A stretch of 64,000 nucleotides of DNA from Actinomycetota bacterium (lineage in GTDB: Bacteria > Actinomycetota > UBA4738 > HRBIN12): NCBI GenBank assembly GCA_035762085.1, contig DASTPT010000094.1:6101-70100 (forward strand), written 5' to 3'. Numbering within the stretch: position 1 is the stretch's first letter; the number at the start of each line of letters is the position of its first letter. The translations under genes were made by a program, and so were the position numbers. The notes under the pieces were generated by a model. It saw only the letters and a list, made by a program, of their open reading frames with translations, was not told where the DNA came from and ran no database searches. Shown piece after piece: positions 35,135-52,750 of this stretch.

Positions 35135-37249
35135 TCAGGAACCGCGCGGGATCACGAGCGCGTCGACCGCAACGCACCCCTGTGGCCAGCAGACCACGGG
35201 GTTCGCGTCCAGCGCCTCGAGGTGATCGCCCAGCTCGTACGCGAGCCACGAGAGGCCGACGACCGCGCGGGCGAGCGCACCCACGTCCGCGGCCGGTGAG
35301 CCACGCACGCCGTCCAGCAGCGGGCGGATCCGGAGGCGTTCGATCATCCGGCGCGCCCGCACCTCGTCGAGGGGCGGGAGCGCGAGGCGCCGGTCGCGCA
35401 GGACCTCGACGAGCACGCCGCCGGCCGCGACGAGCACGAGCGGCCCGAACTCCGGATCGCGCACGATCCCGAGCGCGACCTCCACGCCCCTCGGCGCCAT
35501 CTTCGAGACCACGACCTCGGGACCGAGCAGCCGCTCGAGGTCCGAGTACGCGTCCTCGAGCGACGTCGAGTCGTCGATGCCGAGGCGCACCCCGCCGACG
35601 TCGGACTTGTGCTGCACCCCGGGGACCGCCGTCTTCACCGCCACGGCGAACCCCAGGCGCTGGGCCGCCGACATCGCGTCCTCGAGCGTCGCGGCCGCGA
35701 CGGCGTCCACCGTCGGAACCCCGTAGTCGGCCAAGAGCGCCAGCCCGTCGAGCTCGCCGAGCGGCACGCCGCTCGTCAGCCGCTCTCGCCATCGGACGCG
35801 TACGTCGTCCGACACGGGGGACGAGCCCCCGACCGGCGGCAGCGCCCGGTGGTCCCGGTGGTCGAACAGGTGCCGGAACGCGGCCAGGCCGGTCAGCGTC
35901 CCCTCGAGCGCCGGCGCGCCGGCCGCGTGGATCCTCGCCACGTCCGTGCGATCGATGCCGCCGGCGAAGTTGCTCAACATCGCCATCGGCTTGCCCGTCT
36001 CGGGCCACACGTCGAGGAAGCAGGAGAAATAGCCTTCCTCGTCGGCGTCGTCGGTCACCAGGTCGACCGCGAACGCGAGCGCCGCGACGTTCGGGTCCTG
36101 CACGAGCGCGCGGAGCGAGCCCGTGATCACCTCGCCGGCGTCGCGCCCGGTCCCCCAGAAGTCGAGCGGGTTGATCGGCAGCAGGCCCTCGTCGAGGAGC
36201 GCGTCGAGCTTCGCGGTGGCCTCGGGCCCGAGGGTCGCGAGCGGCACACCTACGGCCGCGGCCGCGTCGACCATCATCGCCCGCTCGCCGCCCGAGTCGT
36301 GGGCGGTCGCGAGCGCGCCCGGCCCCGCGCGACGTCCCGCGACGAACAGCGCGAGCGTGTCGGCCATCTCGTCGAGCGACTCGACGCGGTGCACCCCCTC
36401 GGCCTCGAACAGGGCCTCGTAGGCGCCGTCCTCACCCGCGAGCGCGCCGGAGTGCGCCGTCACCATCTCGCGCGTGAACGCCTCGCGTCCGACCTTCAGG
36501 ACCACGACCGGCACGTCGCGCTCGTGCGCCGAACGCATCGCGGCGCGGAAGCCGGCCGGGTCACGGACCGTCTCGATGAACAGTCCGATCGCCTCCGTGC
36601 TTTCCAGCCCGAGCGCGTACGCCATGTAGTCCGACGTCGTGGTCACGAACTCCTGTCCGGACGAGACGAGCAGGTTGAACCGCAGATCACGGTCGTTGTG
36701 CATGAACGCCGCGAATGCCGACCCCGAGTGGCTCACGAACGTGATGCCGCCGCTCGGCAGCTCGGCCGGCTCCTCCCACCCGGTCGCGCGCAGGCGGCGC
36801 TCCACGTTCACGAACCCCATGCAGTTGCCGCCGCAGATCGCCATGCCCGCCTCCCGCGCGACCTGGGCCAGGCGCTCGGTAAGGGGCGGCGCGTCGGGGC
36901 GGGGTTCCTCGAACCCGCTCGCGTAGATCACCGCCGAGCCGACCCCTGCGTCGGCGCACGCGCGCAGCGTCTCCTCGAGCTGAGCGTTCGCGAGCGCGAT
37001 CACCGCCAGGTCCACCGGCTCGGGCACCTCGTCGATCGAGCCGTAGCACCGGTGCCCCAACAACTCGTCGTACCGCGGGTTCACCGGGTATACCGGCCCC
37101 TCGAACCGCCCGAGCTCGACCAGCTCGCGCAGCGTCTCGTGGCCGACCGTGCCCTCCCGCCCACTCGCGCCGATGATCGCGACCGAACGCGCCTCGAGCA
37201 TCCGCTCGAGCGCGGATCGGCCGTGCGGGTCCGCCTGCGGTGCCGTCAC
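35135..37249 (-). CDS. acetyl-CoA synthetase (ADP-forming) / NDP-forming acyl-CoA synthetase, fused alpha-beta (paralog 1)
   Basis: 704 aa. N-terminal CoA-binding and succinyl-CoA-synthetase-like domains (SVAIIGASGREG, catalytic His region SHSGSAF) and a C-terminal ATP-grasp domain. Confidence 0.85.
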   Translation of the reverse strand: MTAPQADPHGRSALERMLEARSVAIIGASGREGTVGHETLRELVELGRFEGPVYPVNPRYDELLGHRCYGSIDEVPEPVDLAVIALANAQLEETLRACADAGVGSAVIYASGFEEPRPDAPPLTERLAQVAREAGMAICGGNCMGFVNVERRLRATGWEEPAELPSGGITFVSHSGSAFAAFMHNDRDLRFNLLVSSGQEFVTTTSDYMAYALGLESTEAIGLFIETVRDPAGFRAAMRSAHERDVPVVVLKVGREAFTREMVTAHSGALAGEDGAYEALFEAEGVHRVESLDEMADTLALFVAGRRAGPGALATAHDSGGERAMMVDAAAAVGVPLATLGPEATAKLDALLDEGLLPINPLDFWGTGRDAGEVITGSLRALVQDPNVAALAFAVDLVTDDADEEGYFSCFLDVWPETGKPMAMLSNFAGGIDRTDVARIHAAGAPALEGTLTGLAAFRHLFDHRDHRALPPVGGSSPVSDDVRVRWRERLTSGVPLGELDGLALLADYGVPTVDAVAAATLEDAMSAAQRLGFAVAVKTAVPGVQHKSDVGGVRLGIDDSTSLEDAYSDLERLLGPEVVVSKMAPRGVEVALGIVRDPEFGPLVLVAAGGVLVEVLRDRRLALPPLDEVRARRMIERLRIRPLLDGVRGSPAADVGALARAVVGLSWLAYELGDHLEALDANPVVCWPQGCVAVDALVIPRGS

Positions 37250-37259
37250 GTGCCCGAGG

Positions 37260-38879
37260 CTACTTCCTCTTCGGCAGGGCCTTGTCCTTCACGGCCATGC
37301 GGAACGCCTGCCAGCCGGGGATGCCGTTCACGCCGCCGCCTCCGTGCGTGGCGCACGAGCCGTGGTACAGCCCCCTGATCGGGGTGCGGAAGTCCGCGTA
37401 TCCGGGCGCCGGACGCATGTGGAACAGCTGGTCCACCGCGAGCTCGCCGTGGAAGATGTTCCCGCCGATCAGGCCGAGCTCCTGCTCCATCTCGTACGGC
37501 CCGATGATCTGCCGGTCGATGACGGCCGACTTGAAGTTCGGCGCGAGGGTGTTGTACTCCTCGATCGCGCGGTCGGCGTACGCCTCGAGCTCCTCGGTGT
37601 GCGGCTCGGCGCTCCACTCGTGCGGGCACCACTGGCTGTACATCGAGAAGATGTGGATCCCCTCGGGACACAGCTTCTTGTCGAGCGTCGTCGGGATGAC
37701 GCCGTCGACGAAGGGCCGCGTCGCCGCCTTCTTCTCCATGTGCGCGTCCTGGAACGCGCGCTCCGCGTAGTCCGTCGAGAAACACAGCTCGACCGACCCG
37801 GTGTGGTGGTCCTGCATCTCCTTGCCCGGATCGGCCGTGAAGTCCGGCAGCTCCGAGAGCGCGACGTTGATCTTCACGACGCCGGAGCGGCTCCGCCAGC
37901 GCTCGATGTCCCAGACGAAGTCGGCCGGCAGGTCGTACCGGTCGATGAGGTCGAGGAACGCGGTCCTCGGGTGGATCGCCGAAACGCCGATCGGCGCGCG
38001 CAGCTCCTCACCGTTCTCGAGCGCCACGCCGACGAACCGTCCGTTGCGCACGAGGATCTTCGAGACCTTCGCGTTCGTGCGGATCTCGCAGCCGAACGAC
38101 TCGGCCGATCGGCGGATCGAGTCCGACACGGCGCCCATGCCGCCCTGCTGGAACCCCCACGACCCGAGGTGGCCGTCGCCGACGTCGCCGATCGAGTGGT
38201 GGAGCATCACGTAGGCGGTGCCCGCCTCGTCCGGCCCGGCCCACGTCCCGATCACGCCGTTCACCGCGAGCATGCCCTTGATCGGGTCGGACTCGAACCA
38301 CTCGTCGAGCAGGTCGGTGACGCTCATCGTGAACAGCTTCGTGACGCTGCCCACGCCCCGGACACCGAGCTTGCGCATCTTCCATGCCGTCTCGACGGTC
38401 GACAGCAGGTCGCCGAGCGCCATCGAGCCCATCTTCGGCGGCACCCGCAGCAGCAGCGGCCCGAGGACGTCGGCGACGCCCTTCAGCCACTCCTCCCACT
38501 TCGGGAGTATCTCGGCGTCCTTCTTCGAGAACTGCGCGATCGACTCGTAGGACTTCGCGGCGTCGTCCGCGTAGACCTTGATCGAGCGCCCGTCCGGGAA
38601 CGCCTGGTAGTACGGCCCGAACGGCGTGACGTCGTAGCCGAACCGTTTGAGCTGCAGCTCGTTGATGATCGTCGGCGGCATCAGCGACATCACGTACGAG
38701 TAGGTCGTGACCTGAATCTCGGGGTGGTCGGGGAACGGCGCGCTGGTGTCGGCCGCGCCGCCGGTCTTGTGACGCGCCTCGAGCACGACGGCCCGGGCGC
38801 CGGCCCTCGCGAAGTAGGCGCCCGCCGTGAGCCCGTTGTGCCCGCCGCCGATGATGATCGCGTCGTAGACGTTCGTCAT
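37260..38879 (-). CDS. FAD-dependent oxidoreductase of the phytoene-desaturase / amine-oxidase superfamily (CrtI-like)
   Basis: 539 aa. N-terminal Rossmann motif YDAIIIGGGHNGLTAGAYFARAG...VLE, with the size and layout of COG1233 flavoproteins. Confidence 0.8.
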   Translation of the reverse strand: MTNVYDAIIIGGGHNGLTAGAYFARAGARAVVLEARHKTGGAADTSAPFPDHPEIQVTTYSYVMSLMPPTIINELQLKRFGYDVTPFGPYYQAFPDGRSIKVYADDAAKSYESIAQFSKKDAEILPKWEEWLKGVADVLGPLLLRVPPKMGSMALGDLLSTVETAWKMRKLGVRGVGSVTKLFTMSVTDLLDEWFESDPIKGMLAVNGVIGTWAGPDEAGTAYVMLHHSIGDVGDGHLGSWGFQQGGMGAVSDSIRRSAESFGCEIRTNAKVSKILVRNGRFVGVALENGEELRAPIGVSAIHPRTAFLDLIDRYDLPADFVWDIERWRSRSGVVKINVALSELPDFTADPGKEMQDHHTGSVELCFSTDYAERAFQDAHMEKKAATRPFVDGVIPTTLDKKLCPEGIHIFSMYSQWCPHEWSAEPHTEELEAYADRAIEEYNTLAPNFKSAVIDRQIIGPYEMEQELGLIGGNIFHGELAVDQLFHMRPAPGYADFRTPIRGLYHGSCATHGGGGVNGIPGWQAFRMAVKDKALPKRK

Positions 38880-38964
38880 GCTCGGATCTCCTTCGGGCCG
38901 TCTGCCGCGCCATCATGTCCCGCGTTTGAACGACGGGTCAAGCCGACCGTGGCCGATGCGCCGG

Positions 38965-39012
38965 TTGACAACCCTGGTCCGCGGGCTAGCATGCGTTGAA
39001 CCTCGGTTCAAC
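38965..39012 (+). promoter_or_regulatory. sigma-70-like promoter (-35 TTGACA, 16-nt spacer, -10 TAGCAT) with a downstream perfect palindromic operator GTTGAAC-CTCG-GTTCAAC in front of the TetR gene
   Basis: Read directly: TTGACA at 38965-38970, TAGCAT at 38987-38992, 18-bp palindrome at 38995-39012. A second, imperfect copy (TTGAAC-GACG-GGTCAA) lies at 38926-38941. Confidence 0.5.
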
Positions 39013-39047: not shown

Positions 39048-39677
39048 ATGAGCGGGACGACCCCGAAGAGCAAGGATCGGCACCAGGAGATCCTGGACGC
39101 CGCCGCGAGGGTGATCACCGACCGCGGCCTGGCCGAGACCCGGATCTCCGACATCGCCGAAGAGGCAGGGGTCTCTCCCGGGCTCATCCTCTACTACTTC
39201 GACTCGAAGGACCGGCTGCTGTCCGAGGCCCTCACGTACGCGAACGACCAGTTCTACCTGCGGATGTCGCGCGAGATCCGCCGGATCCCCTCGGCGCGGG
39301 ACCAGCTCGCTCGGCTCATCGACCTGTCCGTCCCGGGCCTGCTGCCCGAGTACGGCCGGCTCGACGAGTGGGCCCTGTGGATCGAGGTCTGGGTCCGCGC
39401 GCTCCGGGATCCCGAGATGGCGAAGGACCGCGAGTTCTTGGACCAGCGCTGGCGCGGTCAGATCGCCGACATCATCCGCGGCGGGCAGGCCTCCGCCGAG
39501 TTCTCCTCGGAGCAGACCCCCGAGGAACTGGCGCTGCGGCTCGCTTCCCTGATCGACGGCCTGGCGATCCAGGTGATCATGGAGGACTCGCAGGTCACCC
39601 CAGAGCACATGCGGGGCACCTGCATCGACGTCGCCGCCCGCGAGCTGGGGTTCGAGCGCGAGCCCGTCTCGACCTGA
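39048..39677 (+). CDS. TetR/AcrR family transcriptional regulator
   Basis: N-terminal TetR HTH (RQEILDAAARVITDRGLAETRISDIAEEAGVSPGLILYYF). Divergent from the flavoprotein-ACS operon. Confidence 0.9.
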   Translation: MSGTTPKSKDRHQEILDAAARVITDRGLAETRISDIAEEAGVSPGLILYYFDSKDRLLSEALTYANDQFYLRMSREIRRIPSARDQLARLIDLSVPGLLPEYGRLDEWALWIEVWVRALRDPEMAKDREFLDQRWRGQIADIIRGGQASAEFSSEQTPEELALRLASLIDGLAIQVIMEDSQVTPEHMRGTCIDVAARELGFEREPVST

Positions 39678-39683: not shown

Positions 39684-40130
39684 TCAGCGGGCCCCACCCA
39701 CGAACGCGCGCAGGCCCGGCAGGTGCTCCTCGTAGTGGTCGATCGTCTCCCAGACGAACTCCTGCTCGGCGGCGGCATCGACCTCGGGGAGCGCGGCCCA
39801 GGCGGCGAGCATCCGCTCGCGGGCCTCGTTCAGGCCACGCTCGACGTCCGCGAGGCTTATCCGTCCCGACTCCTCGAGCACCCGGGCGTTCTCGGCGTCC
39901 GTCGCCTCGTCGTCCTCGGGCGGCGGGACGTACGTCCCCGCCCGCATCGCTTCGAGCGTGCCCGCGAGATCGTCCCACCAGTGCGCGACGTGCCACAGCA
40001 CGTCCTTGACCGTCCACCCCTCCACGTTCACGCCCGGCGTCTCGCGACGGGCCGGCTCGATGGCGTCCACGGCCTCGCGGAACGCCGCCCACGCCGCCCG
40101 CTCCCGAGCGCCTAGCTCCTGCTCGTCCAT
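39684..40130 (-). CDS. DinB/ClbS-like four-helix-bundle family protein (DUF1706-like)
   Basis: 148 aa from the ATG at 40130 (MDEQELGARERAAWAAF...WTVKDVLWHVAHWWDD...ETIDHYEEH). The N-terminal 158 aa of the track ORF are an Arg-rich artefact. Confidence 0.5.
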   Translation of the reverse strand: MDEQELGARERAAWAAFREAVDAIEPARRETPGVNVEGWTVKDVLWHVAHWWDDLAGTLEAMRAGTYVPPPEDDEATDAENARVLEESGRISLADVERGLNEARERMLAAWAALPEVDAAAEQEFVWETIDHYEEHLPGLRAFVGGAR

Positions 40131-41352: not shown

Positions 41353-41368
41353 CTGAACGACGGTTCAG
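41353..41368. promoter_or_regulatory. perfect palindrome CTGAAC-GACG-GTTCAG upstream of the acyl-CoA dehydrogenase gene (operator-like)
   Basis: Read directly, in the 55-nt gap between the cysK-like stop and the ACAD start. It belongs to the TGAAC-N4-GTTCA motif family seen at 38926, 38995, 46361 and 50944. Confidence 0.45.
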
Positions 41369-46502: not shown

Positions 46503-47846
46503 ATGCCAGAGCCGCGCGAGCACCTCTTGAGGCGGCGGGGCCCGACCAGCGAGCTCAGCCGGCGGCGGTTCCTGCGAGCATCGGCGAGCACGGCGATCGC
46601 GCTGCCGAGCCTGTCCGCGGTCCTGGCCGCGTGCAGCAAGCCCGGGACCGAGGCCCCCGAGGGCGCCACGGCGCCGGCCGGGACGACCGGACCGTACCCG
46701 CTCGCCCGCACCGACAACCCGGTGACCCTGCCGATCCACGACGACATCCAGCCGATCGAGGACAACCTCCCGGTCGAGACGGGCGCGACGCTGAAGATCT
46801 ACAACTGGGCCGACTACATGTGGAAGAAGGTCATCAACGACTTCTGCGAGGAGTTCAACTGCGACTATGAGTGGACGACCTTCAACAACATGTCGGAGGC
46901 GATCCAGAAGATGTCCACGGGACAGGTCGCCGACGTCTTCTTCCCGACCGTCGATCAGCTGGGCAAGCTGACCTACGGCAAGCTCCTCCAGCCCCTGAAC
47001 CTCTCGTACATCCCGAACCTCGCGGCGAACATGTGGCCGCAGTACCAGAACCCCTTCTACGATCAGGAGGCGCGGTACACGGTCCCGTACACCACGTACA
47101 CGACCGGCGTGGCCTATCGGCGCGACGTCATCCCCGACGAGGAGGCCGAGGCCCAGGGCTACGACCTGATCTGGAACCCTCAGTACTCGGGCAAGGTCGG
47201 CATCTACGACGACGCACGCGAGTCGCTCGCGATGGCGATGCGCCGGGCGGGCGTGGACGACGTGAACACGACCGACGAGGCGACCATCCAGGCCGCGAAG
47301 GACGACCTGGTCGAGCTGATCGACCTCGTGAACGTCCGAACGACGATCAACGGCGTCTACGTGAAGCTGCCCGACGGCGTGTACGACGTCCACCAGTCCT
47401 GGTCGGGCGACATCATCGGCGCGCAGTGGTACCTGAGCGATCTGAACACGCCGGGCGAGACGGACATCCTCGGCTACTGGTACCCGCCGGACAACGTGGG
47501 GGTCGTCGGGAACGACGTGATCTCGATCCCGGCGAACGCCGAGCACCCGGTCCTCGCGCACGCGTTCCTGAACTTCATGATGGACGAGACCCACGCGTTC
47601 GATAACTTCACGTGGAACGGGTACCAGCCGCCGCTCACGTCCATGAACCCGGAGAAGTTGATCGAGGCGGAGATGGGCGCGTACGCGCCGAACAAGGGCC
47701 CGGGGACCGTCCCGCCGTCCGTGCCGCGCGCCGTCGTGACCGAGGAGATGTTCGACAAGGGCATGTGGCTGCTCGAGCTCGCGCCCGAGGACGAGCTGAA
47801 GTGGCAGACGGCGTGGGAGGAGTTCCAGGCCGGAGCGGGGGCGTAG
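46503..47846 (+). CDS. ABC transporter substrate-binding protein, PotD/PotF (polyamine) family, Tat/lipoprotein signal
   Basis: RRRFLRASASTAIALPSLSAVLAAC signal/lipobox, and the PotD-fold blocks LKIYNWADYM and SWSGD. Confidence 0.85.
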   Translation: MPEPREHLLRRRGPTSELSRRRFLRASASTAIALPSLSAVLAACSKPGTEAPEGATAPAGTTGPYPLARTDNPVTLPIHDDIQPIEDNLPVETGATLKIYNWADYMWKKVINDFCEEFNCDYEWTTFNNMSEAIQKMSTGQVADVFFPTVDQLGKLTYGKLLQPLNLSYIPNLAANMWPQYQNPFYDQEARYTVPYTTYTTGVAYRRDVIPDEEAEAQGYDLIWNPQYSGKVGIYDDARESLAMAMRRAGVDDVNTTDEATIQAAKDDLVELIDLVNVRTTINGVYVKLPDGVYDVHQSWSGDIIGAQWYLSDLNTPGETDILGYWYPPDNVGVVGNDVISIPANAEHPVLAHAFLNFMMDETHAFDNFTWNGYQPPLTSMNPEKLIEAEMGAYAPNKGPGTVPPSVPRAVVTEEMFDKGMWLLELAPEDELKWQTAWEEFQAGAGA

Positions 47847-47853: not shown

Positions 47854-48819
47854 GTGAGCGAGCCCGAGGAGGGAACCACCACCCCGTCCCGGCGCGAGGC
47901 GCGACGGGTCCGGCGCGCCTCCGCCAAGCAGCGGGGCGCCTGGTATCCCCGGTGGTTCTGGCCGTCCTTCGCGACCCCCGCGATCGTCTGGCAGATCCTG
48001 TTCTTCGCCGCGTCCTTCTACGTGATCCTGGCGATCGCGTTCGGGACCCAGGACTTCTTCCGGAACCCCCTTCCGGTGTTCCAGCCGTGGTGGTGGGACT
48101 TCTCCACGTTCACGGACCAGCTGGGGAGGATCTTCGGCGGCGTCTACCAGGACGTGTACCTGCGGACGTTCGGATACGTCCTGACCGCGAGCCTCACGTG
48201 CCTGCTGATCGGCTACCCGATCGCCTACTTCGTGGCCCGGTACGGTGGCCGCCGTAAGGGCCTGTTCCTCGCGCTGCTCATCATGCCGTTCTGGATCAGC
48301 TACCTGATGCGGATGTACGCCTGGCAGTCGCTGCTCGAGCGCGACGGGTACGTGAACGACGTACTGACGTTCCTCCAGGTCTTCCAGGAGCCGTTCGGAT
48401 GGCTCGAGGGACACGGCATCACGGTCGTGATCGGGCTCGTCTACGGCTACATGCCGTACCTGATCCTGCCGCTGTACGGGCAGCTCGACCGGATCGACCA
48501 GAGCCAGCTCGAGGCCGGCCGCGACCTGGGCGCGAGTCCGGCGCGGACCTTCTGGCGCGTCACGCTCCCGCTGTCGAAGCCGGGCATCCTGGCCGGGCTG
48601 ATCATCATCACGCTGCCGATGTTCGGGGACTACTACACGAACGCCCTGCTCTCCCAGTCCCCGAGGACGACGATGATCGGCAACCTGATCGACCTGACGT
48701 ACGTCACACCGGGCCTCGCCGCGCAGGGAGCCTCGCTGGTGCTGACGATCGTCGTGATCCTCATCGTCCCGATGCTCTGGTACCTGCGCTACACGGCTCG
48801 AGCCGCGGAGGCGAAGTGA
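47854..48819 (+). CDS. ABC transporter permease (PotB-like)
   Basis: 6 TM helices and the EAA-like motif of binding-protein-dependent permeases (EAGRDLGASPARTFWRVTLP). Confidence 0.85.
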   Translation: MSEPEEGTTTPSRREARRVRRASAKQRGAWYPRWFWPSFATPAIVWQILFFAASFYVILAIAFGTQDFFRNPLPVFQPWWWDFSTFTDQLGRIFGGVYQDVYLRTFGYVLTASLTCLLIGYPIAYFVARYGGRRKGLFLALLIMPFWISYLMRMYAWQSLLERDGYVNDVLTFLQVFQEPFGWLEGHGITVVIGLVYGYMPYLILPLYGQLDRIDQSQLEAGRDLGASPARTFWRVTLPLSKPGILAGLIIITLPMFGDYYTNALLSQSPRTTMIGNLIDLTYVTPGLAAQGASLVLTIVVILIVPMLWYLRYTARAAEAK

Positions 48820-49742
48820 AGACCGCGACGCGCGAGCCGGTGGCGACCACGACGCCGACGACCCCGCGGTCCCACATCCCCTGGTTCGGCAACCCATGGC
48901 GCAAGCCGCGGATCCTCGAGGCGATCACGTGGGTCTACCTGGCGTGGTCCGTCCTGCCGGTCACGATCGCGGTCCTCTTCTCGTTCAACCAGGGGCGCTC
49001 GAGGAGCTCCTGGCAGGGGTTCTCACTCACGTGGTGGTGGGAGGATCCCTACGAGTCGCTGTTCAGGAACCCGCTCCTGCGACCCGCCATCTTCCAGAGC
49101 TTCCGCCTGGCGATCCTCACGACCCTGATCGCGGTGCCGATCGGGACGGCGTTCGCGATCGGACTCGACCGGTGGCGAGGCCGGCCGGCGACCGCGGCGA
49201 ACTTCAGCGTCCTCATGGCGTTCGTCGTGCCCGAGATCATCCTCGGGCTCGCGCTGTTCCTCTCGTTCGAGCACCTGCTGACCTTCATCCCCCTCGGGAC
49301 GGTCGCGCAGGTCATCGGGCTCGTCACGTGGCAGATCGCGTACGCCGTCATCATCGTTCGGGCGCGGTTATTGACCATCGGCCGGGAGTACGAGGAGGCG
49401 GCGATGGACCTCGGCGCGTCGCCGACGAAGTCGATCCGGCGCGTGCTCCTGCCGCTGCTCACCCCGGCGATGTTCGCCAGCGCGGCGATCGTCTTCGCGG
49501 ACTCGATCGACGACTTCGTCACCGTGCGATACCTCTCGGCGGCGTCGGATACCGAGCCGCTCTCGGTCAAGATCTACAACGCGGCGCGCGCGTCACCCAC
49601 GCCCGCGGTGAACGCGGCCGCGACGTTCATGTTGATCTCCACCTTCACGATCATCACGCTCGGCTTCATCGCGTACCGCGTCCTGACACGCGGCCAGCGC
49701 AGGGAGAGCGCGGTCAAGGAGTTCGTGTCGCTCGAGGTGTGA
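48816..49742 (+). CDS. ABC transporter permease (PotC-like)
   Basis: GTG start overlapping the PotB-like stop, and an EAA motif (EEAAMDLGASPTKSIRRVLLP). The track ORF from 48399 is chimeric. Confidence 0.85.
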   Translation: MKTATREPVATTTPTTPRSHIPWFGNPWRKPRILEAITWVYLAWSVLPVTIAVLFSFNQGRSRSSWQGFSLTWWWEDPYESLFRNPLLRPAIFQSFRLAILTTLIAVPIGTAFAIGLDRWRGRPATAANFSVLMAFVVPEIILGLALFLSFEHLLTFIPLGTVAQVIGLVTWQIAYAVIIVRARLLTIGREYEEAAMDLGASPTKSIRRVLLPLLTPAMFASAAIVFADSIDDFVTVRYLSAASDTEPLSVKIYNAARASPTPAVNAAATFMLISTFTIITLGFIAYRVLTRGQRRESAVKEFVSLEV

Positions 49743-49787: not shown

Positions 49788-50915
49788 CTAGGTGGCGGCG
49801 AGCGGCTCCTCCATGGCGTGGAGCTCCTCGAGCGAGGCGGTCTCCATGAGCATGCGGAGCGCGTCGGCCGGCAGGTGCACCGTGATCGGCGTGCCCTGCT
49901 CGAACGGGACCCCGCTCCCCTCGTTCGGCATCCACGCCTGGAGGGTCTGGCCGGGCGGGAGGTGGACGATGATCTGGAGCGTCGAGCCCACGTAGACGAC
50001 GCGCTCGATCATCCCGGGGACGCGGTTCTCGCCCGTGGCGCCGTGGTCCTCGAGGCGGACGCGCTCGGGCCGGATCGTGACCTTGACGCTTCCGGTCGCG
50101 TCCGTGTCCCCCTTCGCGGCCACCAGCTCGAAATCGCCGATCCGCACCTTGCCTCGCCCGTCCTCGGTGCGACCGGCCGCGGCGGCGTCCATCAGGTTCG
50201 AGACGCCCAGGAAGTCGGCCACGTACGCCGTGGCCGGCTCCTCGTAGACCTCGCTCGGCGTGCCGACCTGCTCGACGCGGCCGTTACTCATCACGGCCAG
50301 CCGGTCGGACATCGTGAGCGCCTCCTCCTGGTCGTGCGTCACGTAGATGAACGTGATGCCGACCTCCTGTTGGAGGGACTTCAGCTCGATCTGCAGCGCC
50401 TTGCGCAGCTTGGCGTCCAGCGCGCCGAGCGGCTCGTCCAGGAGCAGTACGGCGGGGTTCAGGATCAAGGCTCGGGCGAGCGCCACCCGCTGCTGCTGCC
50501 CGCCCGAGAGCTGGGAGGGACGCCGTCGCTCGTACCCCTCCAGGCGGACCAGCGCCAGGGCGTCGGCGATCTTCTGCTTCGCCTCGGCCTTCGAGACCTC
50601 CTGGTAGCGGAGGCCGAACCCAACGTTGTCGGCCACCGACAGGTGCGGGAACAGCGCGTAGTTCTGGAAGACCGTGTTGACGTTGCGCTTGTGGGGCGGG
50701 GTGTGCGCCATGTCCACGCCATCGAGCAGGATCCGACCCTCGTCCGGCCGCTCGAACCCCGCGATGCACCGCAGGGTCGTGGTCTTCCCGCATCCCGAGG
50801 GCCCGAGCAGGGAGAAGAACTCGCCCGGGGGCATGTCCAGGTTGATCCCCGCGACCGCCGTGACGTCGGCGAAACGCTTCACCAGATCGACGAGGACGAC
50901 CTCTCCGCCAGCCAT
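49788..50915 (-). CDS. ABC transporter ATP-binding protein (PotA-like, with C-terminal TOBE/MOP domain)
   Basis: Walker [25 protein letters not shown], Walker [12 protein letters not shown], and a C-terminal regulatory beta-domain. The start is probably [11 protein letters not shown]. Confidence 0.9.
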
Positions 50916-50962
50916 GCAGGGCGCAGGATAGCGCACATCCTGCACGACCGTTCAAGGGCCGG

Positions 50963-52414
50963 CTATCCCTCCAGGGTCACGTGGACGTGCTTGGACTCGA
51001 GGTAGTCCTCGACGCCCTGCACCCCGAGCTCCCGGCCGATCCCCGAGCGCTTGTAGCCGCCCCACGGCGCCTCGACCGGCGCGGCCTGCGTGCCGTTGAT
51101 CCACACGGTGCCGACCCGCAGCGCGCGAGCGACCGTCAACGCCCTCGTGATGTCGTTCGTCCACACCGCCGCCGCCAGCCCGTACTCGTTGTCGTTCGAC
51201 ATCCGGACGACCTCCTCGACGTCCGAGAACGGGATCACGGTCATCACCGGGCCGAAGATCTCCTCGCGCGCGATCGTCGCGTCGTTCGTCGCGTCCGCGA
51301 AGATCGTCGGCGGCACCCAGTAGCCGTTCGCCAGGCGCGGGTCGGCGGGACGGTCGCCCTGCACCGCGAGCTTCGCCTCGTCCATGCCGATCTCGATGTA
51401 GCGCTCCACGCGGGTCCGCTGCTCCTTCGAGATCAGCGGCCCCATCGTGGTCTCCTCGTCGAACTGATCGCCAAGCTTCACGCTGTTCGTGCGCTCCACC
51501 ATCGCGGCGAGCGCGTCGTCGTAGATCGCCCGCTCGACGAAGACGCGCGTGCCGGCCGAGCAGTTCTCGCCCATGTTCCAGAAGACGCCGTTGCACGAGC
51601 CCTCGATCGCGGCCTCGAAGTCGGCGTCGGCGAACACGATGTTCGGCGACTTGCCGCCGAGCTCGAGCGTCACGCCCTTCAACGTGTCGGCGGCGTTCCG
51701 CATGATCAGCTGCCCGACCTCCTTCGAGCCCGTGAAGCCCACCTTGTCGACCTTCGGGCTCTCGACGAGCGGGGCGCCGGCCGTCTCGCCGAAACCGGTC
51801 ACCACGTTCAGGACGCCGGCGGGAAGACCGGCCTCCTCGAGGATCCTCGCGATCTCGAGCGAGGTGAGCGGCGTCTGCTCCGGCGGTTTGAGGACGAACG
51901 TGCACCCGGCGGCGATCGCCGGCGCCACCTTCTGCGCCGACATCATCATCGGGTAGTTCCACGGTGTGATGCCGGCCGCCACGCCCACCGGCTCCTTCAT
52001 CACGAACGACATCGCGTCCGGCCCGATCGGCAGGACGTCGCCGTGGATCTTCGTAGCCCAGCCGCCGAAGTACTCGAACATGTAGGCGACGTCGGCGATG
52101 TCGTCCCGCGCGTCGCCGATCGGCTTGCCGGCGTCGAGCGCCTCCAGCCGAGCTAGGCGCTCGAGGTCGCGATGCACGATCTGGGCCGCCCGGAGAAGGA
52201 TCCGGCCGCGCTCACGCTCCGACGTGCCCGGCCACCACGAGCCGCCGTCGAACGCGCGCCGGGCGGCGTCGATCGCCCGCTCGACATCCGCCCGCTTCGA
52301 GTCGGGGGCGGTGGCGATGACCTCCCCGGTGGCCGGATTGAACACATCCAGGCGGGCGCCGTCGTCGGCGTCCAGCCACCGGCCGTCGATGAAGTTCTGC
52401 AGCGCGTCCGCCAC
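50963..52414 (-). CDS. NAD(P)+-dependent aldehyde dehydrogenase
   Basis: 483 aa. Catalytic Cys in GENCSAGTR, Glu in TLELGGKSP, glycine motif GFTGS, GTG start. Confidence 0.9.
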   Translation of the reverse strand: MADALQNFIDGRWLDADDGARLDVFNPATGEVIATAPDSKRADVERAIDAARRAFDGGSWWPGTSERERGRILLRAAQIVHRDLERLARLEALDAGKPIGDARDDIADVAYMFEYFGGWATKIHGDVLPIGPDAMSFVMKEPVGVAAGITPWNYPMMMSAQKVAPAIAAGCTFVLKPPEQTPLTSLEIARILEEAGLPAGVLNVVTGFGETAGAPLVESPKVDKVGFTGSKEVGQLIMRNAADTLKGVTLELGGKSPNIVFADADFEAAIEGSCNGVFWNMGENCSAGTRVFVERAIYDDALAAMVERTNSVKLGDQFDEETTMGPLISKEQRTRVERYIEIGMDEAKLAVQGDRPADPRLANGYWVPPTIFADATNDATIAREEIFGPVMTVIPFSDVEEVVRMSNDNEYGLAAAVWTNDITRALTVARALRVGTVWINGTQAAPVEAPWGGYKRSGIGRELGVQGVEDYLESKHVHVTLEG

Positions 52415-52480
52415 GTTCTCCCCCTCCTCGGCTGACGTAGAGGGGGAGGGTACTACGAGCGACGCGGTGCCGTGGGGTCC

Positions 52481-52750
52481 CTAGGGCTCGTACGTGACCC
52501 ACTCACCGTCGAACCACTCGGGGTCCGCGTCCAGCAAGGCCCGGTACTTCATGTAATCGTCGTGCATCGCGGGATCGTCCGCGTTCTTCATGTACGACTC
52601 TCGGTCGTCGAAGTACACGACCATGAGGACCTCGTCCCGACCGTCGCTCGGGAACAGGAAGTGGGTCCCCCGGAAGCCCGGCGTCGTCCGGGCTCCGATC
52701 TCATCCATGACCGCTCGGAGCTCGTCGAACCGCTCCTGCTGGATCTTCAT
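52481..52750 (-). CDS. small hypothetical protein (ABM/Dabb-like fold suggested)
   Basis: 89 aa from MKIQQERFDELRAVMDEI. Codon third-position GC is typical of real genes here. The track ORF to 52939 is extended. Confidence 0.4.
   Translation of the reverse strand: MKIQQERFDELRAVMDEIGARTTPGFRGTHFLFPSDGRDEVLMVVYFDDRESYMKNADDPAMHDDYMKYRALLDADPEWFDGEWVTYEP

What the first reader, a model, noticed from the sequence alone, without database searches (positions are those of the whole stretch)
35135..52750. Unusual amine/acyl-CoA catabolic cluster: PotABCD-type importer, aldehyde dehydrogenase, CrtI/amine-oxidase-like flavoprotein, two ADP-forming acyl-CoA synthetases, two ACADs, an enoyl-CoA hydratase, a CysK-like enzyme and an EamA exporter
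The gene content does not match the textbook putrescine/spermidine routes; those pass through GABA and succinate semialdehyde and need no CoA chemistry. An amine importer and an aminoaldehyde-type dehydrogenase sit beside a flavin amine-oxidase-superfamily enzyme and a beta-oxidation-like set in which an ADP-forming synthetase does the CoA activation, plus a PLP beta-replacement enzyme and an EamA exporter. This suggests a catabolic or salvage pathway for a polyamine-like, amino-alcohol or omega-amino-acid substrate that is not obviously described. The shared operator motif (previous finding) argues that these units act together. The tight ECH-ACS-EamA coupling (overlapping or abutting start and stop codons) is especially unusual.
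Basis: inference. Interest (0 to 1): 0.6.

Follow-up and report, generated by a model that had tools for sequence, protein, structure and literature searches.

The report
TetR-controlled polyamine-import and acyl-CoA regulon
An uncultured soil actinobacterium places a polyamine-type importer, an aldehyde dehydrogenase, two reversible ATP-dependent CoA ligases, an atypical crotonase and several helper enzymes under one repressor, which suggests an undescribed CoA-dependent way of breaking down amines, although the substrate is still only inferred.

Summary
The genes are real, with one correction. Only one acyl-CoA dehydrogenase lies in 35135-52750; its paralogue is at 26361-27554.

A 16-bp palindrome, TTGAAC-N4-GTTCAA, occurs 7 times in the window against 0.3 expected. 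All 7 sites lie inside the finding, and 6 of them are at promoters or gene junctions.

Eighty related genomes, all uncultured Actinomycetota, show that the stretch joins two modules.
- **Module A:** a PotABCD-type transporter plus crotonase, ADP-forming ligase ACS2 and EamA. These almost always occur together (ECH 73/74 loci, SBP 62/64).
- **Module B:** a CysK-like enzyme, ACAD, a DinB-like protein, TetR, a CrtO-like flavoprotein and ligase ACS1. It lies next to module A in only a few close relatives. Elsewhere it stands alone but carries the same operator.

So this is one regulon built from two modules.

Other results:
- The binding protein keeps PotD's acidic and aromatic polyamine pocket.
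- The crotonase has Asp at both catalytic Glu positions, and this is conserved in its orthologues.
- ACS1 keeps all four residues known to be essential in the DMSP lyase DddX. ACS2 keeps three.

Best model, inferred: a polyamine-type amine is oxidised to a beta-ammonio acid, made into a CoA thioester, and split by beta-elimination to acryloyl-CoA.

This is a new variant of known kinds. Nothing has been tested biochemically.

The parts
35135..37249 (-). ACS1: fused alpha-beta ADP-forming acyl-CoA synthetase, 704 aa
   Evidence: It has CoA_binding_2, Succ_CoA_lig and ATP-grasp_5 domains. Its best solved relatives are the 3-hydroxypropionate-CoA ligase 9y43 (264 bits), DddX 7cm9 (250 bits) and the 4-hydroxybutyrate-CoA ligase 8wzu (238 bits). 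It keeps DddX residues H292, W391, E432 and F435. That tetrad is conserved as H-W-E/D-F/Y/I in 116 of 119 homologues, with an aromatic residue at the last position in 99.
37260..38879 (-). CrtO/CrtI-family FAD flavoprotein, 539 aa, ending 10 nt before the ACS1 start
   Evidence: The NCBIfam CrtO model scores 240 bits over the full length (cutoff 1000) and the crtI family model 80 bits. The Pfam Amino_oxidase match is partial, 35 bits. More than 100 protein clusters are at least 81% identical. It is paired with ACS1 in L085-L088.
38926..38941 (.). Operator O1, TTGAACGACGGGTCAA, in the CrtO|TetR divergent region
38996..39011 (.). Operator O2, TTGAACCTCGGTTCAA, with perfect palindromic arms, in the CrtO|TetR divergent region
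   Evidence: Equivalent site pairs occur in L085 and L086.
39048..39677 (+). TetR-family repressor with a BetI-type C-terminal domain
   Evidence: TetR_N and TetR_C_6 domains. The best NCBIfam model is BetI, 83 bits against a cutoff of 201. Orthologues 67-80% identical accompany module B in L085-L088.
39684..40130 (-). DinB/MDMPI-like protein (mycothiol-dependent enzyme superfamily), 148 aa, downstream of ACAD
   Evidence: MDMPI_N 35.5 bits and DinB_2 28 bits. It follows ACAD, or ACAD plus MMSDH, in relatives.
40142..41320 (-). Acyl-CoA dehydrogenase, 392 aa, short/medium-chain type
   Evidence: All three ACAD domains are present. The catalytic Glu is kept in RIWEGTSEIQR. The best solved relative is 1ukw, 200 bits.
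41353..41368 (.). Operator O3, CTGAACGACGGTTCAG, between the CysK-like stop and the ACAD start
   Evidence: The same position holds a perfect palindrome in L088 and a site in L085.
41376..42440 (-). CysK-family fold-type-II PLP enzyme, 354 aa, with a C-terminal extension of about 45 aa
   Evidence: PALP 247 bits. The cysKM subfamily model scores 349.5 against a cutoff of 344.15; the cysK equivalog scores 342 against 350.95. The SVKDR lysine motif is present.
42545..43387 (-). EamA/DMT-family membrane transporter, 280 aa, translationally coupled to ACS2
   Evidence: EamA 65 bits, two repeats. GTGA start/stop overlap. Present after ACS2 in 62/65 loci.
43384..45486 (-). ACS2: fused alpha-beta ADP-forming acyl-CoA synthetase, 700 aa
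   Evidence: Domains as. Solved relatives: 8wzu 252 bits, 7cm9 224 bits, 9y43 217 bits. The DddX-position signature is H-T-E-W in 106/120 homologues. The subfamily is distinct: the nearest full-length relatives at the 50%-cluster level are 38-53% identical.
45483..46322 (-). Crotonase-fold enzyme (ECH) with Asp at both canonical catalytic Glu positions. The longest ORF runs to 46385; the likely start is the ATG at 46322.
   Evidence: ECH_1 150 bits. Alignment to 5zai and 4k29 shows GGGvD and YVD where the canonical enzymes have GGGxE and xPE. The first Asp is in nearly all of about 75 aligned orthologues and the Y-V-D motif in 66. GTGA overlap with ACS2.
46361..46376 (.). Operator O4, TTGAACGACGCTTCAG, in the ECH|SBP divergent region
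   Evidence: The motif lies in the SBP|ECH or SBP|AmOx region in at least 31 placements across the relatives.
46461..46476 (.). Operator O5, TCGTACGACCGTTCAA, in the ECH|SBP divergent region
46503..47846 (+). PotD/PotF-type solute-binding lipoprotein, 447 aa, with a Tat signal and lipobox
   Evidence: SBP_bac_8 88 bits. The best solved relatives are spermidine/putrescine binders. PotD residues W34, Y37, D168, E171, W229, D257 and Y293 are kept, and E36 becomes D. SRRRFLRAS and LAAC motifs.
47854..48819 (+). PotB-like ABC permease
   Evidence: BPD_transp_1. The PotB model scores 176 bits.
48816..49742 (+). Second (PotC-position) ABC permease, with a GTGA overlap with the first
   Evidence: BPD_transp_1 58.6 bits. 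The frame was set by third-position GC.
49788..50945 (-). PotA-type ABC ATPase with a TOBE_2 domain, convergent with the permeases
   Evidence: ABC_tran and TOBE_2 domains. The TIGR01187 potA subfamily model scores 371.9 against a cutoff of 355.6. Present in 52/54 loci.
50940..50955 (.). Operator O6, CTGCACGACCGTTCAA, at the ALDH-stop/ATPase-start junction
   Evidence: The motif lies upstream of the ATPase in 11 placements in relatives.
50963..52414 (-). NAD(P)-dependent aldehyde dehydrogenase, 483 aa, nearest the betaine-aldehyde/aminoaldehyde group
   Evidence: Aldedh 588 bits. BADH model 584 bits (cutoff 669) and aminobutyraldehyde DH model 489 bits (cutoff 615). Best solved relative 5gtk, 486 bits. 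Within 10 kb of ACS2 in 22/52 loci.
52481..52771 (-). ABM-domain protein, about 96 aa from the GTG at 52771, which has a GGGAGG Shine-Dalgarno sequence; upstream of ALDH
   Evidence: ABM 27 bits. Start analysis. Present in 25/52 loci.
36675..36690 (.). Operator-like site inside the ACS1 coding sequence, 2 mismatches; significance uncertain

Best explanation
The stretch is one repressor-controlled catabolic regulon made of two modules.

**Shown**
- A BetI-type TetR gene sits among six promoter or junction copies of one 16-bp palindrome. These precede CrtO-ACS1/TetR, ACAD-DinB, ECH-ACS2-EamA/SBP-permeases, and the ATPase.
- Module A is the PotABCD-type importer plus ECH-ACS2-EamA, often with an ALDH and in many relatives a flavin amine oxidase. 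It is co-conserved in about 60 species-level genomes.
- Module B is CysK-like, ACAD-DinB, TetR and CrtO-ACS1. It is conserved on its own elsewhere, with the same operator.

**Inferred mechanism**
1. A polyamine-type amine carrying a 3-aminopropyl end (spermidine, norspermidine or 1,3-diaminopropane type) is imported.
2. It is oxidised to the aminoaldehyde. Relatives have an amine oxidase for this step. The window has no identified one, and the CrtO-like flavoprotein is only a candidate.
3. The ALDH oxidises the aldehyde to a beta-amino or N-substituted beta-alanine acid.
4. An ADP-forming ligase (ACS2 and/or ACS1) makes the CoA thioester.
5. The thioester acidifies the alpha-hydrogen, so the beta-ammonium group leaves, as in DddX (DMSP-CoA) and BvaB (beta-valinyl-CoA). 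The catalyst would be the ligase itself or the Asp/Asp crotonase. The products are the free amine and acryloyl-CoA.
6. The crotonase and ACAD convert the C3-CoA. In relatives the route ends at a CoA-acylating (methyl)malonate-semialdehyde dehydrogenase.

Because ADP-forming ligases are reversible, the second ligase may recover the ATP by releasing a downstream acid. EamA would move the released amine or a related cation. The CysK-like and DinB-like proteins would supply or use thiols against acrolein- or acryloyl-type electrophiles. That last assignment is the weakest step.
For: - **Operator.** 7 sites against 0.30 expected, all inside the finding. There are 98 occurrences in 1.32 Mb of relatives against about 6 expected at the window's chance rate. 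They concentrate in the SBP|ECH or SBP|AmOx regions, upstream of the ATPase and ACAD, and in TetR|CrtO regions. The motif is also present in stand-alone module B.
- **Co-conservation with ACS2.** ECH 73/74, EamA 62/65, SBP 62/64, permeases 60/62 and 53/56, ATPase 52/54.
- **Amine oxidase.** A full-length flavin amine oxidase is the first gene of the ECH-ACS2-EamA operon in 22 relatives. Its nearest solved relative is 4-methylaminobutanoate oxidase 7rt0, 159 bits.
- **Binding pocket.** The SBP keeps PotD's acidic and aromatic pocket. The ATPase passes the potA subfamily cutoff.
- **ACS1.** It keeps DddX H292, W391, E432 and F435, conserved family-wide. Mutating these residues abolishes or strongly lowers DddX activity (PMC8163506).
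- **ACS2.** Its signature is H/T/E/W. The functional DddX-like enzyme also has Thr at position 391 (PMC13543886).
- **Precedent.** A CoA ligase paired with a crotonase-family beta-aminoacyl-CoA ammonia lyase is known: BvaA with BvaB1/2 (PMC4619459).
- **Atypical crotonase.** The Asp/Asp variant is conserved in orthologues, so the enzyme is not an ordinary hydratase.
- **End step in relatives.** In L088 the ACAD that follows the operator is itself followed by a bona fide CoA-acylating (methyl)malonate-semialdehyde dehydrogenase, 730 bits against a cutoff of 448. This fits a C3 or branched-C4 end route.
- **No known CoA route.** Reviews of polyamine catabolism describe none.
Against: - No biochemical or expression data exist. 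Every relative is an uncultured MAG.
- ACS1 and ACS2 are not in the DddX clade. They are 26-27% identical to DddX, which ranks about 100th or lower of 133 references. They are equally close to plain 3-hydroxypropionate and 4-hydroxybutyrate ligases.
- The E432/F435 region is a variable loop, and a multiple alignment disagrees with the pairwise one for ACS2.
- The window has no recognisable amine oxidase, and the CrtO-like protein is not a demonstrated one.
- BvaB lyases keep the Glu pair, so the Asp pair has no functional precedent.
- The ALDH is within 10 kb of ACS2 in only 22/52 relatives.
- The model does not really account for the CysK-like, DinB-like, ABM and CrtO-like proteins. It also does not account for the nucleoside hydrolase, ribokinase, Rieske and arginase-family genes that join module B in relatives.
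- More distant ACS2 relatives (42-51% identity) sit beside LIV-type ABC transporters without a crotonase.
Confidence: 0.4

Rival explanations
1. Two ordinary functions share a regulator but are not one pathway. The transporter, ALDH and (in relatives) the amine oxidase carry out standard direct-oxidation polyamine catabolism to GABA or beta-alanine. ECH-ACS2-EamA and module B handle neutral short-chain acids or acyl-CoAs (3-hydroxypropionate, acrylate, propionate, or isobutyrate of the valine type). The ADP-forming ligases work mainly in the ATP-yielding, CoA-releasing direction.
For: - The best solved relatives of both ligases include the 3-hydroxypropionate and 4-hydroxybutyrate-CoA ligases.
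- The ACAD-MMSDH adjacency in L088 resembles valine or propionate catabolic clusters.
- The ACAD is a generic short/medium-chain type with its catalytic Glu.
- The best annotated solved crotonase relative is 3-hydroxypropionyl-CoA dehydratase 5zai, 123 bits.
- More distant ACS2 relatives sit with LIV-type acid or amino-acid ABC systems.
Against: - SBP and ECH share one divergent promoter region with two operators, and they co-occur in 62/64 loci.
- In 22 genomes the amine oxidase is the first gene of the ECH-ACS2-EamA operon.
- The crotonase lacks both hydratase glutamates.
- ACS1 carries a conserved cation-pi/base tetrad.
Confidence: 0.2
2. The regulon degrades a quaternary ammonium or sulfonium compound with a C3 or C4 acid backbone: homocholine or beta-alanine betaine, DMSP, or gamma-butyrobetaine/carnitine. 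The alcohol or aldehyde is oxidised to the betaine acid, ligated to CoA, and then either eliminated as in DddX (C3) or dehydrogenated and hydrated as in CaiA/CaiD (C4).
For: - The TetR is BetI-type, and the ALDH is nearest the betaine-aldehyde dehydrogenases.
- ACS1 has the DddX Trp/Phe cation-pi pair.
- In most relatives module A adjoins a bona fide choline dehydrogenase (835 bits against a cutoff of 732), an OpuA-type betaine transporter, a dimethylglycine-dehydrogenase-like enzyme and corrinoid proteins.
- Module B adjoins sarcosine oxidase genes.
- The crotonobetainyl-CoA dehydrogenase model hits the ACAD at 178 bits.
Against: - The binding protein belongs to the PotD family and keeps four acidic ligand-binding residues, which suits polyamines rather than zwitterionic betaines. 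The ATPase and permease are PotA/PotB-like.
- Flavin amine oxidases act on primary, secondary or tertiary amines, not on quaternary ones.
- The operator is essentially absent from the choline/betaine genes, so those are neighbours and not regulon members.
- The ACAD is not part of the conserved core.
Confidence: 0.15
3. This is the first reader's generic reading: an omega-amino acid of four or more carbons, such as GABA from putrescine or 5-aminovalerate from cadaverine, is CoA-activated and passed through a beta-oxidation-like ACAD and hydratase sequence.
For: - The window contains a ligase, an ACAD and a crotonase under one operator.
- ACS2's best solved relative is a 4-hydroxybutyrate-CoA ligase.
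Against: - The ACAD accompanies ACS2 in only 6/42 loci, whereas the crotonase does so in 73/74. The conserved chemistry therefore needs no dehydrogenation step.
- The crotonase lacks the hydratase Glu pair.
- No thiolase or 3-hydroxyacyl-CoA dehydrogenase lies in the finding's range, or in the flanking genes that were annotated (window 19320-35081 and 52481-62988).
Confidence: 0.12
4. It is a sulfur-amino-acid unit. The CysK-like enzyme and the EamA (O-acetylserine/cysteine exporter family) protein make or export a cysteine derivative, and the CoA enzymes process a thioether or thiol acid such as 3-methylthiopropionate or 3-mercaptopropionate.
For: - The CysK-like protein passes the cysKM subfamily cutoff.
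- EamA weakly matches the cysteine exporter model, 25.7 bits.
- A DinB/mycothiol-type protein is present.
- The ACAD weakly matches the 3-sulfinopropanoyl-CoA desulfinase model.
Against: - EamA and the CysK-like gene belong to different modules and are adjacent only in the window and in L007; CysK lies within 11 kb of ACS2 in 2/42 loci.
- The ACAD keeps the catalytic Glu of true dehydrogenases.
- The transporter is polyamine-type.
Confidence: 0.04

Closest known systems
PotABCD / PotFGHI spermidine-putrescine ABC importers (E. coli)
   Same: The binding protein is of PotD type. PotD residues W34, Y37, D168, E171, W229, D257 and Y293 are conserved, and E36 is replaced by Asp. There is a PotA-type ATPase with a TOBE domain that passes the subfamily cutoff, and two PotB/PotC-like permeases.
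   Different: The ATPase is on the other strand, after an ALDH. The binding protein is a Tat lipoprotein with a linker of about 95 aa. Residues T35, S83, Y85 and W255 differ (Y85 to D, W255 to G). Scores against the PotD and PotB equivalog models are far below their cutoffs (72 against 582; 176 against 348).
DddX, the ATP-dependent DMSP lyase of Psychrobacter sp. D2 (PDB 7CM9; PMC8163506), and the DddX-like enzyme of Neptunicoccus (PMC13543886)
   Same: The ACD-superfamily architecture is the same fused CoA-binding, ligase and ATP-grasp arrangement. The phospho-histidine is kept. ACS1 keeps W391, E432 and F435. ACS2 keeps E432, has an aromatic residue at 435, and has Thr at 391 as the DddX-like enzyme does. 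The proposed logic is also the same: CoA ligation, then beta-elimination to acryloyl-CoA.
   Different: Identity is only 26-27%, with no clade relationship. There is no BCCT transporter and no dddB/dddC context. The organisms are soil actinobacteria, and the proposed leaving group is an amine, not dimethyl sulfide.
Bva pathway for beta-valine (Pseudomonas sp. SBV1; PMC4619459)
   Same: A CoA ligase lies next to a crotonase-fold enzyme that eliminates the beta-amino group from the aminoacyl-CoA. This is a CoA-dependent route for an amine that cannot be handled by ordinary deamination.
   Different: BvaA is an AMP-forming PaaK-type ligase, whereas here the ligase is ADP-forming. BvaB1/2 keep the Glu144/Glu164 pair, whereas here both positions are Asp.
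Canonical enoyl-CoA hydratase (crotonase) and 3-hydroxypropionyl-CoA dehydratase (PDB 5ZAI)
   Same: The crotonase fold and ECH_1 domain are present. 5ZAI is among the best annotated solved relatives, at 123 bits.
   Different: Both catalytic glutamates are replaced by aspartate, and this is conserved across orthologues. The closest solved chain, 4K29 (234 bits, uncharacterised), keeps Glu/Glu.
Direct-oxidation and spermidine-dehydrogenase routes of polyamine catabolism, followed by beta-alanine to malonate semialdehyde to acetyl-CoA (review PMC9397018)
   Same: Both use amine oxidation to an aminoaldehyde, an aminoaldehyde dehydrogenase and, in relatives, a CoA-acylating (methyl)malonate-semialdehyde dehydrogenase as the end step.
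   Different: The known routes deaminate GABA or beta-alanine by transamination and use no acyl-CoA ligase or crotonase. No aminotransferase lies in this regulon.
BetI, the choline-responsive TetR repressor
   Same: It has the TetR_N domain and the BetI-type C-terminal domain TetR_C_6, is divergently transcribed from a regulated operon, and has palindromic operators.
   Different: It scores 83 bits against the BetI equivalog cutoff of 201. It controls no choline or betaine genes here, and the operator is absent from the neighbouring bet-type genes of relatives.

Membership tests
PotABCD polyamine importer | PotD/PotF-fold binding protein with the acidic and aromatic polyamine pocket | tested here: met
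   All top solved relatives are spermidine/putrescine binders. W34, Y37, D168, E171, W229, D257 and Y293 are kept, and E36 becomes D; four other positions differ.
PotABCD polyamine importer | PotA-type ATPase that reaches the curated family score | tested here: met
   The TIGR01187 potA subfamily model scores 371.9 against a cutoff of 355.6. The PotA equivalog model scores 406 against 482, so it is not reached.
PotABCD polyamine importer | Binding of spermidine or putrescine | not testable with these tools
   This needs ITC or thermal-shift assays on the purified binding protein.
DddX DMSP lyase | ACD-superfamily fused architecture with the phospho-histidine (His292) | tested here: met
   Both ligases have the domains and His at the aligned position in every homologue.
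DddX DMSP lyase | Trp391 and Phe435 cation-pi pair, plus Glu432 as base | tested here: inconclusive
   ACS1 has W, E and F in an ungapped pairwise alignment, and the family has W in 119/119, E or D in 116/119 and F or Y in 99/119. ACS2 has T, E and W in the pairwise alignment (106/120), but the multiple alignment shifts this loop.
DddX DMSP lyase | Sequence or clade relationship to characterised DddX | tested here: not met
   Identity is 26-27%. DddX ranks 103rd (for ACS1) and 131st (for ACS2) of 133 reference sequences.
DddX DMSP lyase | DMS and acryloyl-CoA formed from DMSP | not testable with these tools
   An enzyme assay is needed.
Canonical enoyl-CoA hydratase | Two catalytic glutamates (rat ECH Glu144 and Glu164) | tested here: not met
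   Both are Asp in the window protein. The first Asp is in nearly all of about 75 aligned orthologues and the second in 66-67.
Canonical enoyl-CoA hydratase | Crotonase fold (ECH_1 domain) | tested here: met
   ECH_1 150 bits. The solved relative 4k29 scores 234 bits.
Bva-type beta-aminoacyl-CoA ammonia lyase pathway | Adjacent CoA ligase and crotonase-fold lyase | tested here: met
   ECH and ACS2 overlap by GTGA and co-occur in 73/74 loci.
Bva-type beta-aminoacyl-CoA ammonia lyase pathway | AMP-forming PaaK-like ligase, and a lyase that retains the Glu pair | tested here: not met
   The ligase is ADP-forming and the crotonase has Asp/Asp. BvaB keeps E113/E133.
CysK/CysM O-acetylserine sulfhydrylase | Curated family score and the PLP-lysine motif | tested here: inconclusive
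   The cysKM subfamily model is just passed (349.5 against 344.15), but the cysK equivalog model is not (342 against 350.95). SVKDR is present, and there is an extra C-terminal tail of about 45 aa.
CrtO/CrtI carotenoid ketolase or desaturase | Curated family score | tested here: not met
   CrtO scores 240 against 1000, and crtI_fam 80.5 against 238. No carotenoid genes are nearby.
Flavin amine oxidase (MAO / putrescine oxidase type) | Full-length PF01593 match | tested here: not met
   The window flavoprotein matches only residues 227-381, at 35 bits. A separate protein in relatives, absent from the window, matches over its full length at 177 bits.
BetI choline repressor | Curated equivalog score | tested here: not met
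   83 bits against a cutoff of 201.3. Only the domain type TetR_C_6 is shared.
Acyl-CoA dehydrogenase | Three ACAD domains and the catalytic glutamate | tested here: met
   Domains. The Glu is in the WEGT motif, aligned to 1ukw.

The most novel reading that the evidence does not exclude
This would be a sixth, CoA-dependent route of bacterial polyamine catabolism. The aminopropyl end of spermidine, norspermidine or spermine is oxidised to an N-substituted beta-alanine (putreanine-type acid). An ADP-forming ligase related in mechanism to DddX thioesterifies it. A retro-Michael elimination then splits it into the shorter amine and acryloyl-CoA, with an Asp/Asp crotonase acting as a new kind of amine lyase. 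A second reversible ligase recovers the ATP.
Probability: 0.2. Interest if true: 0.8.

Novelty: new variant of a known kind. Interest (0 to 1): 0.55.

Why it matters
Polyamines are abundant nitrogen and carbon sources in soil. A 2022 review lists five bacterial routes for using them, and none goes through CoA thioesters. A widespread, tightly conserved regulon in uncultured soil Actinomycetota that joins polyamine-type uptake to ADP-forming CoA ligases and an atypical crotonase would add a new route.

It would also extend the ligation-then-elimination chemistry of the DMSP lyase DddX from sulfonium to ammonium substrates. It would give a function to a conserved Asp/Asp branch of the crotonase superfamily. 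It would explain why reversible ADP-forming ligases are used.

The 16-bp operator also offers a handle for reconstructing the regulon in hundreds of MAGs. If the amine link turns out to be incidental, the finding reduces to an ordinary short-chain acyl-CoA cluster beside a polyamine importer.

Tried and rejected
- Exact-sequence look-ups of the window's ACS2 and ACAD found nothing on record.
- Word-indexed homologue searches for ACS2, ACS1 and the CrtO-like protein returned only the same uncultured clade, with generic names. No cultured representative or informative annotation was found.
- The exhaustive representative search showed that ACS2 is a tight subfamily. Its 42-51% identical relatives sit in unrelated contexts: LIV-type ABC systems, and in one case an S-methyltransferase and SMR pumps. 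These gave no substrate clue.
- I considered the ACAD as a 3-sulfinopropionyl-CoA desulfinase. Rejected: the catalytic Glu is kept.
- I considered the ECH-ACS2-ALDH set as a FerA/FerB-type hydroxycinnamate route. Rejected: the hydratase/lyase model scores 119 bits against a cutoff of 276, the catalytic residues differ, and the transporter is polyamine-type.
- I considered membership in the DddX family. Rejected on identity and ranking, although the residue pattern is kept as a mechanistic lead.
- The multiple alignment of the E432/F435 loop was unreliable, so I used pairwise alignments and flagged the uncertainty.
- Literature searches for homocholine/beta-alanine betaine, putreanine, and ADP-forming ligase with crotonase and polyamines found no description of such a cluster.
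- Relaxing the operator to 3 mismatches added only noise-level sites.
- Structure prediction and fold search were not run. Sequence matches to solved structures already named the folds, and the tools return no pocket geometry.

Full report
**What is in the sequence.** The window is about 72% G+C, so mechanical ORF lists are full of artefacts. I called genes by third-position GC and checked them against Pfam and NCBIfam.

On the minus strand, from 46322 down to 35135, lie these genes:
- A crotonase-fold protein, ECH (45483-46322).
- An ADP-forming acyl-CoA synthetase, ACS2 (43384-45486).
- An EamA/DMT transporter (42545-43387).
- A CysK-family PLP enzyme (41376-42440).
- An acyl-CoA dehydrogenase (40142-41320).
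- A DinB/MDMPI-like protein (39684-40130).
- After a divergently oriented BetI-type TetR gene (39048-39677, plus strand), a CrtO/CrtI-like flavoprotein (37260-38879).
- A second ADP-forming synthetase, ACS1 (35135-37249).

Diverging from ECH are a PotD-type binding lipoprotein (46503-47846) and two permeases (47854-48819 and 48816-49742). Converging on them are a PotA-type ATPase (49788-50945), an aldehyde dehydrogenase (50963-52414) and a small ABM-domain protein (52481-52771).

The ECH/ACS2 and ACS2/EamA junctions are both GTGA start/stop overlaps.

Only one ACAD is inside the coordinates; a 47% identical paralogue lies at 26361-27554. The flavoprotein is CrtO/CrtI-like rather than a true amine oxidase. 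The ATPase is not colinear with the rest of the transporter.

**The operator.** The intergenic regions share a palindrome, TTGAAC-N4-GTTCAA. With up to two mismatches it occurs 7 times in 64 kb against 0.30 expected, and 0 of 100 shuffles reached 7. All seven sites fall between 36675 and 50955:
- Two between the CrtO-like gene and TetR.
- One just upstream of ACAD.
- Two between ECH and the binding protein.
- One at the ALDH/ATPase junction.
- One inside ACS1, of uncertain meaning.

Three mismatches add only background. This is the expected layout for a TetR repressor that controls its own divergent promoter and several target operons.

**Comparative genomics.** A scan of one genome per species with ACS2 returned 80 loci at 69-94% identity, all uncultured Actinomycetota MAGs. 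I mapped the window's proteins onto them, clustered all called ORFs and corrected for contig ends.

| Gene | Loci with the gene near ACS2 / loci long enough to show it |
|---|---|
| ECH | 73/74 |
| EamA | 62/65 |
| Binding protein | 62/64 |
| Permease 1 | 60/62 |
| Permease 2 | 53/56 |
| ATPase | 52/54 |
| ALDH | 22/52 |
| ABM | 25/52 |
| ACAD | 6/42 |
| TetR | 4/42 |
| CrtO-like | 3/42 |
| ACS1 | 3/42 |
| CysK-like | 2/42 |

In 22 loci a full-length flavin amine oxidase is the first gene of the ECH-ACS2-EamA operon. Its nearest solved relative is the methylamine-forming 4-methylaminobutanoate oxidase 7rt0. The window lacks this gene.

Downstream of EamA most relatives carry instead a bona fide choline dehydrogenase, an OpuA-type betaine transporter, a dimethylglycine-dehydrogenase-like enzyme and corrinoid proteins.

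The second half of the finding is a module in its own right. In loci found through ACS1 and CrtO-like homologues, the set CysK-like, ACAD, DinB-like, TetR, CrtO-like and ACS1 recurs without module A. One of these loci, L087, lies about 35 kb from module A on the same 305,885-bp contig that carries L012. At least five large contigs carry both modules unlinked, judged from shared contig lengths.

The same operator marks both modules everywhere. There are 98 occurrences in 1.32 Mb of relatives. They concentrate in the SBP|ECH or SBP|amine-oxidase regions, upstream of the ATPase, upstream of ACAD, and between TetR and the CrtO-like gene. The motif also lies before the CysK-like gene, before ACAD and before CrtO in stand-alone module B. 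It is essentially absent from the choline/betaine genes.

The conclusion is that this is one regulon made of two modules, fused side by side only in the window's close relatives.

**Clues to chemistry.**

1. *Transporter.*
   - The binding protein's best solved relatives are all spermidine/putrescine binders.
   - Aligned to E. coli PotD, it keeps W34, Y37, D168, E171, W229, D257 and Y293. E36 becomes D, and it gains an Asp at Y85. This is a pocket for a polycation, not a zwitterion.
   - The ATPase passes the potA subfamily cutoff.
   - The binding protein has a Tat signal and a lipobox.

2. *ALDH.* It is a class-1/2 enzyme nearest the betaine-aldehyde and aminoaldehyde dehydrogenases, but below every equivalog cutoff.

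3. *Ligases.*
   - Both are fused alpha-beta ACD-superfamily enzymes.
   - They are about equally similar (217-264 bits) to the archaeal 4-hydroxybutyrate and 3-hydroxypropionate ligases and to the DMSP lyase DddX.
   - DddX ligates DMSP to CoA and then eliminates dimethyl sulfide to give acryloyl-CoA. His292, Trp391, Phe435 and Glu432 are needed for this (PMC8163506).
   - ACS1 keeps all four in an ungapped pairwise alignment.
   - In 119 ACS1 homologues the pattern is H, W, E/D, F/Y/I in 116, with F or Y in 99.
   - ACS2 homologues show H, T, E, W in 106/120. Thr at position 391 is also found in the recently characterised functional DddX-like enzyme (PMC13543886).
   - Unrelated ACD representatives are variable at these positions.
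   - Caveats: the 432/435 loop aligns poorly in a multiple alignment, and neither ligase belongs to the DddX clade.

4. *Crotonase.*
   - It has Asp at both positions where hydratases have their catalytic glutamates: GGGvD instead of GGGxE, and YVD instead of xPE.
   - The first Asp is in nearly all of about 75 aligned orthologues, and the Y-V-D motif in 66.
   - The closest solved chain, 4k29, keeps Glu/Glu.
   - It is therefore a conserved, non-canonical crotonase.

5. *Precedent.* In Pseudomonas sp. SBV1, beta-valine is degraded by a CoA ligase and two crotonase-family beta-aminoacyl-CoA ammonia lyases (PMC4619459).

6. *End of the route.* In L088, the ACAD behind a perfect operator is followed by a bona fide CoA-acylating (methyl)malonate-semialdehyde dehydrogenase (730 bits against a cutoff of 448) and then the DinB-like gene. 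This is the usual exit of C3 or branched-C4 acyl-CoA routes.

7. *ACAD.* It keeps its catalytic Glu, so it is a real dehydrogenase and not a desulfinase.

**Most likely mechanism.** Only the gene content, regulation and conservation are shown. The chemistry is inferred.
- A polyamine-type amine is imported.
- Its aminopropyl end is oxidised to the aldehyde. Relatives have an amine oxidase for this. The catalyst in the window is unidentified, and the CrtO-like protein is only a candidate.
- The ALDH oxidises the aldehyde to a beta-amino or N-substituted beta-alanine acid.
- An ADP-forming ligase makes the CoA thioester.
- The beta-ammonium group is then eliminated, by the ligase itself as in DddX or by the Asp/Asp crotonase as in BvaB. 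The products are a shorter amine and acryloyl-CoA.
- The crotonase and ACAD process acryloyl-CoA towards malonate semialdehyde or propionyl-CoA.
- Because ADP-forming ligases are reversible, the second one could regenerate ATP when a downstream CoA ester is released. That would explain both the enzyme class and the duplication.
- The roles of EamA (moving the released amine or a cation) and of the CysK-like and DinB-like proteins (thiol supply or transfer against acrolein- or acryloyl-type electrophiles) are guesses.

I put about 0.65 on the general statement: one regulon couples polyamine-type uptake and aldehyde oxidation to CoA-dependent processing. I put about 0.3 on the specific beta-elimination chemistry. 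The reported confidence is 0.4.

**Rivals.**
- *Two ordinary functions under one regulator:* standard polyamine oxidation, plus short-chain acid or acyl-CoA metabolism. This fits the ligases' similarity to hydroxy-acid ligases and the ACAD-MMSDH pair. It fits poorly with the shared divergent promoter, the amine oxidase inside the ECH-ACS2 operon, and the crotonase without its glutamates.
- *A quaternary-amine or sulfonium substrate:* beta-alanine betaine or homocholine, DMSP, gamma-butyrobetaine. This fits the BetI-type repressor, the BADH-like ALDH, the cation-pi residues and the neighbouring betaine and sarcosine genes. The PotD-type acidic pocket and the lack of the operator on the betaine genes argue against it.
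- *A C4-C5 omega-amino acid beta-oxidation:* the ACAD is not part of the conserved core, and no thiolase or hydroxyacyl-CoA dehydrogenase lies in the finding's range or in the flanking genes I annotated (window 19320-35081 and 52481-62988).
- *A cysteine or thiol unit built on CysK and EamA:* the module boundary contradicts it.

**Comparison with what is known.** The transporter works like PotABCD and largely passes its sequence tests. The ligases work like the ACD superfamily and may work like DddX, but they are not members of the DddX family. The crotonase fails the defining test of a hydratase. The TetR is BetI-like in domain type only. The flavoprotein reaches neither the CrtO/CrtI cutoffs nor a full amine-oxidase match.

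A 2022 review lists five bacterial polyamine routes: gamma-glutamylation, aminotransferase, direct oxidation, spermidine dehydrogenase and acetylation. It does not mention acyl-CoA chemistry. My literature searches found no description of this gene set.

**Verdict.** The feature is a real, widely conserved, operator-defined regulon in uncultured soil Actinomycetota, and its chemistry is plausibly new but unproven. I rate it a new variant of known kinds, with interest 0.55. The most novel reading not excluded is a CoA-dependent amine-lyase route for the aminopropyl group of polyamines. I give it about 0.2 probability, and it would deserve about 0.8 interest if true.

Noticed in passing
window 32280-35081 (+): An adenylate/guanylate cyclase domain (32280-32837), an AAA_16 ATPase (32855-33544) and a TPR region (33699-35081) lie in three different reading frames. 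A continuous translation contains stop codons. This looks like a large signal-transduction ATPase regulator split by frameshifts, or like assembly errors.
   Followed up: partly
window 17594-32273, compared with L088:13860-21106: The left flank of ACS1 is syntenic with the flank of module B in relatives. It holds a PLC/acid-phosphatase-family phosphoesterase (30786-32273), a small ORF (30023-30481, minus strand), the ACAD paralogue (26361-27554), an amidase (19320-20711) and an ABC-2 exporter. There is no operator here, so these are conserved neighbours but probably not regulon members.
   Followed up: partly
L087:4614-9776 and L088:2705-9870: In relatives the TetR gene overlaps a RihA-like pyrimidine nucleoside hydrolase and a ribokinase transcribed in the same direction. 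Module B there also contains a Rieske oxygenase (GbcA-like, 179 bits) directly followed by an arginase-family ureohydrolase. None of these is in the window, and my model does not explain them. They could point to a nucleoside-linked or guanidino substrate.
   Followed up: partly
window 37260-38879 and homologues: The CrtO-like flavoprotein is unusually conserved: at least 81% identity in more than 100 protein clusters. Its operon partner ACS1 ranges from 54 to 91%. This suggests strong constraint on an unknown function.
   Followed up: no
L064:7832-9070 and 21 other loci: A 412-aa flavin amine oxidase, most similar to 4-methylaminobutanoate oxidase 7rt0 (159 bits), sits between the binding-protein gene and ECH in 22 relatives. 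It is absent from the window and its closest relatives, which carry module B beside module A instead.
   Followed up: yes
Related loci, +2 to +11 kb from ACS2 (for example L028, L064): Most relatives carry a complete choline-to-glycine island next to module A. It comprises a BetA-type choline dehydrogenase (835 bits against a cutoff of 732), a fused OpuA permease, an OpuAC binding protein, a dimethylglycine-dehydrogenase-like enzyme and a B12-binding corrinoid protein. It has no operator.
   Followed up: partly
window 36675-36690: An operator-like site with 2 mismatches lies inside the ACS1 coding sequence. It could be chance or an internal roadblock site.
   Followed up: no
window 46001-52000: G+C is lower here (0.67-0.69) than the window mean of about 0.72. 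The region coincides with the transporter genes of module A. This may reflect membrane-protein composition or a different history.
   Followed up: no
L081:2007-12112: The nearest outgroup of ACS2 (P0122, 51% identity) follows a LIV-type ABC transporter. Upstream of that lie an S-methyltransferase (PF02574), two SMR small multidrug pumps and a flavoprotein, with no crotonase.
   Followed up: no
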